DNA of 64,000 nucleotides from Antedon mediterranea (lineage: Eukaryota > Animalia > Echinodermata), in the NCBI RefSeq assembly GCF_964355755.1, contig NC_092674.1, forward strand, positions 31,682,001 to 31,746,000. Reading direction: 5' to 3'. Below the pieces are notes generated by a model. The model was not told the DNA's origin and did no database searches. It saw only the letters and a program-made list of their open reading frames with translations. The position numbers and the translations under genes were made by a program. Positions 3,501-57,600 of the stretch are shown one piece after another. Every line of letters starts with the position of its first letter. Within the stretch, counting starts at the first letter, position 1.

Positions 3501-6500
3501 AACAAGGTATGTGTGCTTTTCTACAGTATATCATTTTGCTGGACATACAACGAAACAAGCTTGTAGTACATAAATGTAATCTTAGAGTTTAGTTCAACTT
3601 GTTGTTATTATATACAGTAGCTTATATTTAATATATATATATATATTTATTTAATTCATTATGAATGAGCTTTATTAAAATTTCTTTTAAAATGTAACTG
3701 TCTGTGACTAACATCCAATTATATCTATTAATAGGAAGTTACAACAGCACAAAAAGATACTCAAAGAAGCGATGCTGAAAATGCTTCTCTCTACAATCTA
3801 GCATTAAGAGGATTACGGCTGTTAGGTCATTGGACAGCTCTTGTTGCTGAGTTGGTAAGAAATACTATATTTTTTTAAAAGAGAGAAATTGTTATTTATT
3901 ATTTTATTTTAACAACATTTTATTAGGGTGGTCCATCCACCCGAAGCTGATCATTAGGAACCCTCACAAAAATACAACATGACAAGACATAAACATGAAA
4001 CAATTAAAATTAAATGATAAATTGAAATATTTATTTTATGCTTATTTTGGCCCGAGATGCTTAGTCTATTTTGATTGTGCATTTAATTGTAAAATATTTT
4101 TTACGTTTTTCAGTATTCATGGAAGCTAATCCACCCCGCTGACAAACGATCAAATCCCAACATCCCAGAAAATGCAGAAGAATATGAAAGAGTAAGTTAC
4201 TTTAGCTTATTTCTGAATACTATTCAACTATTGTGTTATAGTTATTATTACTTTTATGTATTTTGAAAATAAACAGAATGTTAGAAGTGTACAGTAATTG
4301 TTAACTATTTGTTACAGTCAACACGATACAACTACAGCAGCAATGAGAAGTTTGCATTGATTGAAGTAATTGCAGCAATAAAGGGTTTACAAGTGCTGAT
4401 GAACCGAATGGAAAGTGTATTCTATGAGGCCATTGTAAGGACAGTTTATGCTGAAATACAAGACTTTGTCCAACTTCAGCTGAGAGAACCAATGAGGCTT
4501 GCAGTCAAGAAAAAGAAACATGTTTTAGAAACGTAATTTACTTATCTCATATAGCTTAAAAGTTTTTGATTCTTTCTTTAATTCGAATTGGCAATCTCTT
4601 ATAATATGTACTGCTATTTTTTTATTATTGGGGAAAAGAGCACACATTTTTCAAATAATATGGAAACTTTATGTTTTTAGAGTTCTTCATTCAATCAGAC
4701 AGACATGCAGTGATTGGCATAATGGTATGGCACCCAATGATGATCCTTGCTTAAAGGGTGATAAAGACCCCAAAACTGGTTACAGTATACAAGTTCCTAG
4801 GAGGACGGTTGGACCCAGCAGTACACAGGTAAATATCTTATTGCCAAATTTGTTTTTGTTTTTTTAATTACATTTTATCTTTGTAGTTTAAGTTGAATTA
4901 TATTATTATACATATATACATTATATGTCAACATTGTTTTCAATTTTGTAGCTATACATGATGCGTACAATGCTAGAGTCAATATTCTGGGATAAAGGAA
5001 AGAAACCAATGCGCAAGGATCTGGATGAGAAGTCACTAACCATCATTGAAGCATTCCATAAACGATCTTTTTTCTACAAACACCTACTCAGTTTTTCAGG
5101 TATGATTTTATTATTCTACAAACATAACATTATGCCTATCTCTGTGATTGATTTATGAAACACTAAACTTTTTATTTTACAGAAACTTTACAAGAATGCT
5201 GTGATTTATCTCAACTCTGGTATCGAGAATTCTTTTTAGAGATGACAATGGGAGAACGAATTCAGGTATTCTAATAAAGTTTCTTAAATAAATTAAGCAT
5301 AAATAATTTAAACAGTGTTATTTATTAGTTAAATTAATTTACAATTAAAGTTTGAAACTTCCTAAAATTTGATATAAAATGTATATAATATAACATACAA
5401 AACAAGCCCTTTGAAAGGAGCTATAATCAAAAAACTACTTTAGGATTGGTGCTTGATTTAAGCATACCATAGCATTTACTATTAAGCTACTTTAGGATTG
5501 GTGCTTGATTTAAGCATACCATAGCATTTACTATTAAGCTACTTTAGGATTGGTGCTTGATTTAAGCATACCATAGCATTTACTATTAAGCTACTTTAGG
5601 ATTGGTGCTTGATTTAAGCATACCATAGCATTTACTATAATGTCTACTTATGTTAACATTGTTTGATTTAGTTTCCAATTGAGATGTCAATGCCCTGGAT
5701 TTTAACCGACCACATTCTAGAGACCAAGGATGCTTCAATGATGGAGTATGTATATCAAATATAATCAATAAGTGCTTAAGTAATTATAGGCGTTTAAATT
5801 TAACATTGTTTATATATATTAATATCAATATTAAAGCCCCATTCCCTACGTTTTTTAGATCTAATTTAAGATCACAAACTATATTTAATGTAAAAATAAT
5901 ACTATATGGTCCTATTGCAATAACTTTTTTCGTCTTTAAACGGTTAAAAATGTGAAAAATAAATCGATTCTAATAATTATAGCGGCCCGCTATAAATCCC
6001 AAAATGCATTGCGCGCGGATTGATATTTTTGTTTTTCACCTGTAATTCGCCCACTTTTCGATCGATCGTGAAGCCAAAACAAATGGAAGACTCCTAACTT
6101 TTCAGCGAAAATACCGGGTTTTCCCCAATTTGTATCAACAGAGTCTGGCAAAAATAGAAAGACAATTAATGCAGCAACTATACAACGTCAGGCTAGGTAT
6201 ATAGCTAGCGTACGATGTTCGTACGTTATCGATGTTTACCAGCTAGGCCTACAAAACTAAGCCTAGCTAGGCCTAAGACCGTCCACGAGAGGTCGATCGC
6301 CGCGAGCTACTTAGGTAGTGCATTGTTTCTCACTTTTTATCATAATTTACCATAAAACGTACATTTAAGACAAGGAATGACATGGTTTAATGTTTTTAAA
6401 GTGATATATATGTATTATTTTCCAAAAAACGTCCAAAATTGCAGGGAAGGGGTCTTTAATTTTAGTAATGAAGTTGGGGAAGTTTTTACTTCCTTTTCCT

Positions 6501-54666: not shown

Positions 54667-57600
54667 ATGGTACAGTTGACTAGTCCAGCTGTTGAAGAAG
54701 CACTGTCAAGTGGTAAATGGAATAGACCCAATAGCAGAAGATTATACACTATTAATGATGTTATAATATAAAATTTATATTGGAATTGTTATGATGTATC
54801 TCTCATATGATTTTAATTTGTGATGAGAAGAATAGTTAATTAAGATTACTATCAATAAATATTGTCATTGTTTTTAGTAATGAATTTTAATATCTTACAG
54901 TATTAACAATATTAATCTATTAAAATTTATTAAATATATATTATTTATTATAATTATAAAATGGGCAGTATATAACAGGAGGCAATTGTATATTTGATCT
55001 GGTCAAGTATGATTTTTTACTCCACATGTTCTGCATACTGAAATAGGTTTTTTATATGGTTGTCCATTCTGAAATAAACAAAATCATATCATTTATTTTT
55101 ATAAAATTAGTGTAAATGAAACTTTTAAATGCCTACTACAGACCTATAAAATTGAAAACATTTATTACTATACTGTATTTACAATTTATTATTTAAAAGT
55201 GTGAATACATACAAATATTGGAGGTATATTTCTATGTACATAGGGCCAGGTCTTACAGATAAAATAAGAAGTAATAATAGAAATAATATATTGTATGTTT
55301 ATATAATAAACATACATAACTTACTATCTTGCATAATTTCATTATTGAGATGCACAGCCAGGCAATTTAATTAATAAAGTACAGTATTAATATGATGATA
55401 CTGTATGTATTTATTGTATTAGGCCTAGCCGCCAGCGCGCCGCGCGTCTAATAGCCTAGACGCGCCTATTCTTTAACACAGGCATGTCTATTTTGCTGTG
55501 TAAAATAGCCTAAATTCAATCAAATTATACTCCCGTGAAATAATTGTTGCTCTCTCGTGTTAATTACAATTAGATGCAATACTATTTAAACAAGATGATA
55601 TACCACGCTGCATAGTTTGAAAAACTTCGAATTAATTGTAATTTAACATTTTAGATGACTCATTTTACTTCCGAAATTTTTGAAACGAGAATGTTCATTT
55701 TGCTGGTTTGCATAGCAATGTTTGAAATGTCATAGTACTTAAAATATTATATAAACATTTTTAAAATCTACATATGTTTTAAGAAAATAAGTTTAAGAAT
55801 AAAAGAAGTTTAATGTTTGATATCATTGAGGAGTTTTTTTTACTTATTTTACGTCTTTTATATGTATGGAACGATCGTCTTTCAGCGTCGCGTGTCGAAA
55901 ACATTTTGTGTGAAAACTTTCAATTAACACGCTTCGCTGCTTCGACGCCCTCTAGAGTTTTACCTTGCCAGTAAACATTCCATATTTGCATTACGGCGAA
56001 CATACGTGTGGGGGGGGGGGGGGGGGTGGTGGGTGCCTACTGTATTTTAATAGGTCTAGGATATCGTATCACTGAAATAAATTTTACTTTTAAAAGAAGT
56101 ATATTTATTTCAATTTAATAATCTAAATACTCTGTAAAAAAGCTTGCTTTTAAAATGTAATCAATATGTTTTTTTTTCTTGAAACGGCATGAGCCAATAG
56201 CAATGTTTGTTTTACAGTGTTTAGGTGTACTCTTTGTGGGGACATGCGCACTGTTTCTCTGCGGTGTTGTTGATATTATTTTTTTCGTTATGTTGCGCGA
56301 GATAAATTCTCCCTTCTTTAAAAACTGATGCTGCAACACCCACGATTATGTGTTTTCATCAATTAAAATTAATAAATTGTTAATCAACTTTTCAAATATG
56401 CTTATGATAATAAATGATTTCAATAACTTAAAATTCTAAAGTGACTAAGGAATTAAAATGGTATGTACGTCGTCTCTGAAACGTCCACGTTTGTTGGACG
56501 TTTTTTCAGTTAGTTAGGCTAGCCTTGCTACTGCTAGCTAGGCTAGCCTCCTACATATCCTAGCTGGCTAGGTAGGCCGGTCTAGCATGGCCTGACATGG
56601 TATGGCTAAGTACTACGTAGCCTAGGTACAGATAAATGCTAACTTATCTAAATCTAGCTTAGAATACGTGTCTACTAGACCTAGGCCTAGGCATCAATTT
56701 TATAATTAGTATGAAAATTATGGCTGGCTAGGCCTACGCATAATAATTGTATAAGATTAATAATATTAAGAAAGATGGCATCATCATGCATGCAGTGCAG
56801 ATAGATACCAGTCATTCATTTTGTACTAACTGACAGTACTCTGGGCCCCTGTGCCTAGCCTAGGCTAGTTTATCATCAAATAATCTAATCTAGGCCTAAT
56901 TAAATATGGTTAAAATAAAAAAATTAAAAATGATGACGTAGAAGAGGGCCAGCAGTATTAACTATTAATTAGGCATTCCGACAATTAAATTCCTACTGTA
57001 CTTTTTGATCCAATTTGTAATCGGTTTTAACAGTATTTTAACATTTGCCTAAAATTAGGGGCAAAAACAGTATTTCAACATTGGCCTATAGGCCTATATA
57101 ATAGTGTTTTTGCAAGATCTTTTCATTCAATTCATTTTTTAAATGGACCATTAACATTTCTTGAATCATTGCTTCTTAATACAAAAATACATTTGATCCG
57201 AATCATTAACAATACAAGATTCAAGATTCAAGATTCAAGAAATTTAATTTGTCCATAAAAATGGAAATTCACTTTGCTTGGTAGATTAAAACAACAATAT
57301 TGCAACAATTTAAAACGTGCAGTATTATAACAGATTAAAAATACAAGATAAAAAGTTAAAAATACTGTTAAAAATGTAAAACTATTTAAAAATTGCATTA
57401 ACGTCTTACATTAGAATTAAAAATATGAATGCTATTTACAACGAAGGATTTTCTAGTTCTACAAAGATTTGCTCTTGGAGGTCGTAGCCTAATGCCTGAT
57501 CTATTTAAGTTATAACAGTAATGTAACGGATGAGTGGGGTCTTTCATAATATTGTTTACTTTTTTTAAAATACTCTTTTCATAGATAAATGAACAAGGCG

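What the first reader, a model, noticed from the sequence alone, without database searches (positions are those of the whole stretch)
6244..57096. Pervasive TAGGCCTA / TAGCCTA micro-insertions at TA sites: probable transposon excision footprints
Seen: I count at least 30 exact TAGGCCTA octamers (e.g. 19424, 22477, 28912, 29709, 30042, 31230, 36209, 43961, 44981, 46064, 47467, 53341, 54102, 55420, 56891, 57089). About 0.5 would be expected in 64 kb if GC is roughly 30%, and I noticed none in coding exons. Repeat copies show they are insertions. In the 46-bp minisatellite, gTAcgg becomes gTAggccTAcgg (46730), gTAatt becomes gTAgccTAatt (47187) and aaTAtag becomes aaTAggccTAtag (46243). Kolobok-like copy 2 has an extra gccta at 23142 relative to copy 1. 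Established: cut-and-paste elements with TA duplications leave TA + a few terminal bases + TA on excision. Inference: a very active TA-targeting element with GG(C)...(G)CC ends has repeatedly inserted and excised, acting as a genome-wide 5-7 bp insertion mutator.
Basis: partly seen in the sequence, partly recalled or inferred. Interest (0 to 1): 0.8.

Follow-up and report, generated by a model that had tools for sequence, protein, structure and literature searches.

The report
Two kinds of transposon exit scars
The eight-letter word TAGGCCTA occurs about 70 times more often than chance in this animal DNA and, where copies can be compared, is a short insert at a plain TA; it is most likely the scar left when a jumping gene with GG...CC tips cuts itself out, a known side effect that here likely marks about 1 in 100 TA sites, though the jumping gene itself was not found.

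Summary
Observation confirmed. The window has 31 TAGGCCTA (0.45 expected), 15 TAGCCTA, 7 TAGGCTA and four 9-mers. In the 46-bp minisatellite, +TAGGCC and +TAGCC each occur in 1 of about 22 units, so these are derived inserts not copied from the flanks. Contigs from one sample show the same indels between copies and haplotypes. A second set, TACAGTA/TACTGTA (50 vs 11.3), matches the Sleeping Beauty footprint. The GG words cluster, avoid CpG-poor DNA (1 of 53 vs 13.4) and favour G-TA-C sites; the TACWGTA words do not avoid CpG-poor DNA. Best reading: end-joining scars of a TA-targeting cut-and-paste element with GG(C/G) tips, probably IS630-Tc1-mariner type. No donor, Tc1/pogo transposase or filled allele was found, and no genome was available. 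Footprints are a known mechanism. The scan has noted this word in other genomes, twice or more with a claimed pogo donor (unchecked). My searches found no paper on it. New variant of a known kind; interest 0.45.

The parts
6244..57899 (.). Whole set: 31 TAGGCCTA, plus most of 15 TAGCCTA and 7 TAGGCTA (one TAGGCTA lies at 2654), 2 TAGGGCCTA and 2 TAGGCCCTA; 57 words in all, 53 outside tandem arrays
46730..46737 (.). +TAGGCC at a TA in one of about 22 units of the 46-bp minisatellite; derived, not a duplication of the flank
47187..47193 (.). +TAGCC at a TA in one unit of the same minisatellite; derived, not a duplication of the flank
46243..46287 (.). TAGGCCTA in place of the unit's TA in a diverged flanking unit, then copied once in tandem (46280): one event
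23134..23170 (.). Nested words in Kolobok-like copy 2; 5 extra bases at 23140 relative to copy 1 (6244-6275); direction unknown, also fits slippage
54474..54481 (.). TAGGCCTA absent (6 letters left out) from another copy of the multi-copy CAC...GTG element; direction not settled
   Evidence: table 4 (X2, X3, X5)
54836..54838 (.). Plain TA in the window; another copy of the same element carries +TAGGCC here
   Evidence: table 4
56680..56689 (.). Single-copy site where the contigs of X3 and X4 lack 6 letters and that of X5 keeps them: likely allelic; also fits a CCTAGG duplication
56727..56736 (.). The X4 contig has 20 extra letters here, made of two scar-like words around AT-rich filler
   Evidence: table 4
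57893..57899 (.). TAGCCTA in a roughly 100-copy MITE; 5 letters left out in 7, 4 and 5 contigs of X2, X3, X5 (about 16% of depth); direction not settled
   Evidence: table 4
21789..22509 (.). Cluster of 8 words around the inferred start and first intron of an asparaginase-family gene
   Evidence: gene start inferred
53147..53348 (.). Cluster of 5 words 0.3-0.5 kb upstream of the inferred split ATG of a WW/U1-zinc-finger (WBP4-like) gene
56515..56898 (.). Dense cluster just behind an inferred ATG|GT first exon of a plus-strand gene
   Evidence: gene start inferred from sequence only
1..64000 (.). Second set: 28 TACAGTA and 22 TACTGTA outside tandem arrays (Sleeping-Beauty-type footprint words); not clustered, not depleted from CpG-poor DNA; not shown here to be insertions

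Best explanation
The words are short inserts at TA sites and are most likely end-joining scars of a cut-and-paste transposon with GG...CC tips that duplicates TA. Inferred steps: (1) The element lands at TA, with a bias for G before and C after, mostly in CpG-rich, probably open DNA near gene starts. (2) The transposase later cuts it out with a 2-3 nt stagger, leaving tip bases on each flank. (3) End joining fixes these as TA-GGCC-TA, less often TA-GSC-TA or a 9-mer. With GGC tips and 3-nt overhangs, a 2-nt GC pairing would give the 8-mer and a 3-nt pairing with a central G:G mismatch the two 7-mers. GG(G) tips with fill-in fit the counts too. (4) Scars supply new TA sites, and slippage and copying inside other repeats add more, which gives the nested clusters. 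A separate CAG-tipped family likely left the TACAGTA/TACTGTA words. The donor is most likely of the IS630-Tc1-mariner group, pogo-like.
For: Shown: 70-fold excess. Derived, non-templated inserts in the minisatellite. The same indels between copies in contigs: 3 of the 12 rows shown of 141; 54836, 56680 and 56727 among the 12 rows shown of 15. 50 of 57 words cannot be tandem duplications. Among 2,772 TA-x-TA words, the top non-microsatellite ones are TAGGCCTA, TACWGTA and TAGSCTA; TACWGTA is the canonical Sleeping Beauty footprint (bioRxiv 10.1101/659086, passages). G at -1 / C at +1 in 15 of 36 flanks of isolated 8-mers vs 6.5, P 0.0009 before correction for 20 tests. 1 of 53 words lies in CpG-poor DNA vs 13.4; by clusters 1 of 20 vs 5.1, P 0.02; 1 of 254 circular shifts was as low; TACWGTA 22 of 50. 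The pogo element Passer targets AAGTACTT and favours gene 5' ends more than SB does (PMC9976928 section 21). An unrelated metagenome contig, L003, has +GCCTA at a TA in one arm of a foldback.
Against: No donor was found. The only TA|GG...CC|TA pairs were short 10-13 base matches, and no Tc1/mariner/pogo Pfam hit appeared in 457 ORFs of 42 aa or more. No filled allele appeared among the joints and loose ends shown, though most rows were cut. The one clean allelic case (56680) and 23140 fit slippage equally well. Direction is settled only in the minisatellite. In single-copy stretches 7 of the 9 indel rows shown were not scar words. Fourteen other tandem arrays (168 substitutions, 18 indel rows) held no scar. 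The GG-ended pogo rows I saw in PMC7386202 supplement 3 had TAA/TAAA duplications and were non-animal. TAGGTA/TACCTA, the analogues of the commonest Tc3 footprints, are not enriched (22 vs 29). All contigs showing these indels come from one sample, possibly the assembly's own.
Confidence: 0.72

Rival explanations
1. A TA-cutting nuclease (aborted integration or a domesticated transposase) makes a staggered break; a terminal-transferase-like repair polymerase adds G residues to both ends before joining. No element ever sat there.
For: The counts fit independent G runs on each side: 2+2 commonest, then 2+1, then 3+2. No donor was found. The G preference of terminal transferase is recalled knowledge.
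Against: The insert is nearly invariant, unlike untemplated additions. No TA-x-TA word with other mixed G/C content is enriched. The parallel TACWGTA pair is a textbook footprint.
Confidence: 0.08
2. Excision scars, but from a non-ITm superfamily with GG tips (PHIS group: ISL2EU or Harbinger-like).
For: ISL2EU TIRs usually begin with GG and make a 2-bp duplication (PMC4482050 passages).
Against: That paper gives AT for ISL2EU and TWA for Harbinger. The minisatellite sites (gTAc, gTAa) show a 2-bp TA duplication.
Confidence: 0.1
3. The words spread mainly by slippage and by copying inside repeats from a few old seeds.
For: 7 of 57 words are exact tandem duplications. 14 of 53 lie in recognised repeats. 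The words cluster strongly: 34 of 53 within 100 bp of another vs 9.4.
Against: 50 of 57 are not duplications. 32 words are isolated, mostly in unrelated contexts. The minisatellite inserts have no local template.
Confidence: 0.06
4. A selected protein-binding palindrome near promoters.
For: Palindromic; 13 of 53 words lie within 1 kb of two inferred start codons vs 4.1 (post hoc).
Against: The word arises by insertion, appears inside a minisatellite and MITEs, and differs between copies. One-substitution variants are spread over all 8 positions (26 vs 11.5), as neutral decay would give.
Confidence: 0.04

Closest known systems
Sleeping Beauty / Tc1 / Tc3 excision footprints (bioRxiv 10.1101/659086, passages)
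   Same: TA + 2-4 tip bases + TA, and a pair of 7-mers differing at the middle base. TACAGTA/TACTGTA itself is enriched 4.4-fold in the window.
   Different: The inner bases are GGCC/GSC, not CA-based; the 8-mer dominates; the 6-mer class is not enriched; seen as accumulated natural variation, not in an assay.
pogo superfamily: Passer (PMC9976928, passages and section 21) and Fot/Fot-like (PMC7386202, passages and supplement 3 rows)
   Same: TA target with G-TA-C core and 5'-gene bias (Passer; footprints 0-4 bp). GG-starting TIRs exist in Fot/Fot-like.
   Different: The GG-ended rows I saw had TAA/TAAA duplications in fungi, algae or oomycetes. The three echinoderm pogo rows begin CAG. No pogo transposase in this window.
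ISL2EU / PIF-Harbinger (PHIS; PMC4482050, passages)
   Same: GG-starting TIRs (ISL2EU).
   Different: The duplication is AT or TWA, not TA.
DNA-transposon excision polymorphisms in rice (PMC4423477, passages)
   Same: Excision as a natural source of small indels between genomes.
   Different: There the outcomes are heterogeneous (8 of 94 perfect); here one fixed word recurs.

Membership tests
ITm (IS630-Tc1-mariner/pogo) excision footprint | 2-bp TA duplication around the added bases | tested here: met
   46730, 47187, 54474, 54836, 57893, L003
ITm (IS630-Tc1-mariner/pogo) excision footprint | Added bases fixed, not copied from the flank, and readable as left tip plus inverted right tip | tested here: met
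   50 of 57 words are not duplications; junction matrix
ITm (IS630-Tc1-mariner/pogo) excision footprint | A TA-flanked element whose TIR tips equal the added bases | tested here: inconclusive
   None convincing in 64 kb; genome not held
ITm (IS630-Tc1-mariner/pogo) excision footprint | ITm DDE/D transposase available in the genome | tested here: inconclusive
   No hit in 457 window ORFs; rest of genome not searchable
ITm (IS630-Tc1-mariner/pogo) excision footprint | Filled, empty and scar alleles at one locus | tested here: inconclusive
   Empty and scar states seen; no filled state among the rows shown (most rows cut)
ITm (IS630-Tc1-mariner/pogo) excision footprint | Footprint reproduced in an excision assay | not testable with these tools
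   bench test
pogo (Passer-like targeting) | G-TA-C target core and bias to gene 5' ends (a likeness, not a family definition) | tested here: inconclusive
   G/C flank bias seen, but the A at -2/-3 of AAGTACTT is not; 5' bias rests on inferred starts and CpG content
ISL2EU | AT duplication in an A|AT|T target | tested here: not met
   Sites are TA vs PMC4482050
PIF/Harbinger or TAA-type Fot | 3-bp TWA/TAA duplication | tested here: not met
   gTAc and gTAa targets; TAAGGCCTA+TAGGCCTTA only 3 copies
Sailor (DD82E) | TATA duplication, GT or CC tips | tested here: not met
   PMC8533490 passages vs targets

The most novel reading that the evidence does not exclude
Marine invertebrate genomes carry a readable fossil record of past transposon jumps. 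Two scar families (GG-type and CAG-type) together mark about 2% of TA sites in this window. The GG type tracks unmethylated, promoter-near germline DNA while the CAG type does not. Excision would then be a major, sequence-specific source of small insertions in regulatory DNA, and scar density would map historical germline open chromatin and jump rates from sequence alone.
Probability: 0.35. Interest if true: 0.7.

Novelty: new variant of a known kind. Interest (0 to 1): 0.45.

Why it matters
Footprints are textbook at single loci. If this reading holds, they account here for about 1% of TA sites (53 of 5,547) and concentrate near gene starts. That would make cut-and-paste turnover countable and datable in natural genomes, a quantity usually hidden because the elements are gone. 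It also warns motif finders that such palindromes near promoters need not be binding sites.

Tried and rejected
Whole genome: not held. Donor candidates in the window were rejected. The 19289-20223 MITE looked GGGCC-tipped but reads TGT...ACA with a GGCC duplication. The 53527-56008 element is CAC...GTG with a TGGG duplication. 51672-57049 is a 13-base inverted match spanning host exons, taken as chance. Scans for recalled G-rich end motifs found nothing convincing. Pfam scans of 457 ORFs found only a hAT remnant near 16786-17025. Run X1 (another organism label, share 0.05) covered 16 of 30 bins thinly and gave no usable orthologous comparison. The metagenome scan gave 6 loci (4 are one locus), with no similarity to the window and no TA|GG...CC|TA element; their word counts are biased by the search pattern. 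GGC versus GG(G) tips could not be separated by counts. Paper searches: TAGGCCTA as a whole word, 0 papers; inside words with 'motif' and 'invertebrate', 7 listings with one occurrence each and unrelated titles, not opened; searches listed nothing on mass natural footprints in animals. PMC9179366 and PMC7325037 passages added nothing on tips. Repbase Reports and most subscription journals are not in the library, and bioRxiv supplements are closed, so a prior description may exist.
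Full report
Observation. TAGGCCTA occurs 31 times in the window against 0.45 expected from 100 dinucleotide shuffles, none of which exceeded 3. With tandem arrays masked, it is the most over-represented 8-mer (28 vs 0.39). 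Among 2,772 TA-x-TA words, the leading non-microsatellite ones are TAGGCCTA, TACAGTA/TACTGTA (50 vs 11.3), TAGCCTA/TAGGCTA (21 vs 4.5) and TAGGGCCTA/TAGGCCCTA (4 vs 0.13). TAGCTA (14 vs 13.2) and TAGGTA/TACCTA (22 vs 29) are not enriched. The window is intron-rich animal DNA with CYFIP, WDR55, asparaginase, thymosin, WW/U1-finger and MBT exons. Earlier scan notes call the genome a feather star; I did not test that. None of 53 words lies in 4,359 bp of Pfam-matched coding sequence (expected 2.7-4.3).

They are insertions. In the 46-bp array, +TAGGCC (46730) and +TAGCC (47187) each occur in one of about 22 units, among 7 indels and 19 substitutions. The other 14 arrays examined hold no such insert. 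46243 is a third event, copied once at 46280. Contigs of one sample (runs X2-X5, possibly the assembly's own) were laid on 52300-59700 and 52950-57000. In one search, 12 of 141 indel rows were shown and 3 were scar words: -6 at 54474, +TAGGCC at 54836, -5 at 57893. In one search (differences of 60% share or more), 12 of 15 rows were shown. They include 54836 again, -6 at the single-copy site 56680 in X3 and X4 but not X5, and +20 scar-like letters at 56727 in X4. The other 7 single-copy rows were not scar words. Caveats: 23140 and 56682 are exact tandem duplications, as are 7 of 57 words overall, and direction is fixed only in the array. An unrelated metagenome contig, L003, has a foldback whose arms differ by +GCCTA at a TA, so the process is not limited to this species.

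Where they sit. 34 of 53 words have a neighbour within 100 bp (9.4 expected, 0 of 2,000 draws as high), while TACWGTA does not cluster (12 vs 8.4). Only 1 of 53 lies in DNA with CpG o/e below 0.5 (13.4 expected). Counting clusters once gives 1 of 20 vs 5.1 (P 0.02). At a 0.6 cut, 1 of 254 circular shifts was as low. TACWGTA shows no such avoidance (22 of 50). The direct cluster-level comparison of the two sets is only P 0.09. Reading CpG-poor as methylated gene body is inference. 13 of 53 words lie within 1 kb of two inferred start codons (4.1 expected; TACWGTA 8 of 50 vs 3.9; post hoc). Isolated 8-mers prefer G before and C after the TA (15 of 36 vs 6.5). One-substitution variants are in excess (26 vs 11.5), which suggests a spread of ages. 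14 of 53 lie in recognised repeats and may have been carried in.

Mechanism. For Sleeping Beauty, staggered cuts leave 3-nt overhangs that are repaired to TACAGTA or TACTGTA, largely by end joining; Tc3 gives TACATA/TATGTA (bioRxiv 10.1101/659086, passages). The window's TACWGTA excess matches that word, though I did not show those words to be insertions here. By the same logic (inference), GGC tips give TAGGCTA/TAGCCTA by 3-nt pairing with a central mismatch and TAGGCCTA by perfect 2-nt GC pairing, which would explain why the 8-mer dominates and 6-mers are missing. GG or GGG tips with fill-in also fit the counts, so the third base is open. The pogo element Passer targets AAGTACTT, favours gene 5' ends more than SB does, and leaves 0-4 bp footprints (PMC9976928, passages and section 21). 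This parallels the contrast between the two word sets; it is a likeness, not a membership test.

Donor. Not found. Inverted-repeat scans and Pfam scans of 457 ORFs gave no TA|GG...CC|TA element and no Tc1/pogo transposase, and no genome was held. ISL2EU has GG tips but an AT duplication, Harbinger TWA (PMC4482050, passages), and Sailor TATA (PMC8533490, passages), so these fail. In PMC7386202 supplement 3, GG-tipped Fot/Fot-like rows exist. Those I saw (places 1-4 and 31-60 of 99 for GGG, plus a few GGC/GGT/GGA rows) had TAA or TAAA duplications and were non-animal, and the three echinoderm rows begin CAG. Earlier scan notes on other genomes report the same word at about 150,000-170,000 copies and, in several, a low-copy pogo donor with GG...CC tips. 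These are unchecked leads: they moved my guess of the donor towards pogo, and I could not verify them.

Novelty and verdict. Excision footprints and excision-derived indels are known (also PMC4423477, passages). My ten searches listed no paper on this word or on mass natural footprints in animals, but the library lacks Repbase Reports and most subscription journals. The feature is real and mechanistically ordinary, but unusual in scale (53 of 5,547 TA sites) and in the regional contrast between the two word sets. New variant of a known kind; confidence 0.72; interest 0.45.

Noticed in passing
window 53527-56008: 2.5-kb multi-copy element with CACGTATG tips and a TGGG 4-bp duplication (Chapaev-like; name recalled), absent from the other haplotype (joint 53513>56024). 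It sits between two inferred head-to-head gene starts and carries what looks like a captured coding exon near 54594-54685 (monooxygenase-like by eye; no Pfam hit).
   Followed up: partly
window 19289-20223: MITE with TGTCAC...GTGACA ends, a GGCC 4-bp duplication and subterminal 32-bp repeats (Ginger-like; name recalled).
   Followed up: partly
window 5830-6459 and 22739-23569: Two inverted copies of a TTAA-flanked AG...CT element (Kolobok-like; name recalled) that carry nested scar words internally.
   Followed up: partly
window 9875-9940: One unit of the 57-bp minisatellite in a CYFIP intron is inverted.
   Followed up: no
window 337-526 and 888-1077: Two 68%-identical neighbouring CYFIP-like exons, possibly mutually exclusive alternatives.
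   Followed up: no
window 13258-14548 and 14768-16057: Two 84%-identical 1.3-kb copies in a WDR55 intron, with GTTATCCGC-type inverted ends nearby.
   Followed up: no
window 36960-45750: Small Ser/Gly-rich and Cys-rich exons with weak, mostly below-cutoff Pfam matches to knottin-like families; likely a secreted Cys-rich gene family.
   Followed up: no
window 21581-21652 (-): tRNA-Glu(TTC) gene.
   Followed up: no
window 16380-17025: hAT transposase remnant (Dimer_Tnp_hAT) in a WDR55 intron.
   Followed up: no
L002 (whole, 2197 bases): Metagenome contig with 8 TAGGCCTA in 2.2 kb, unrelated to the window.
   Followed up: partly
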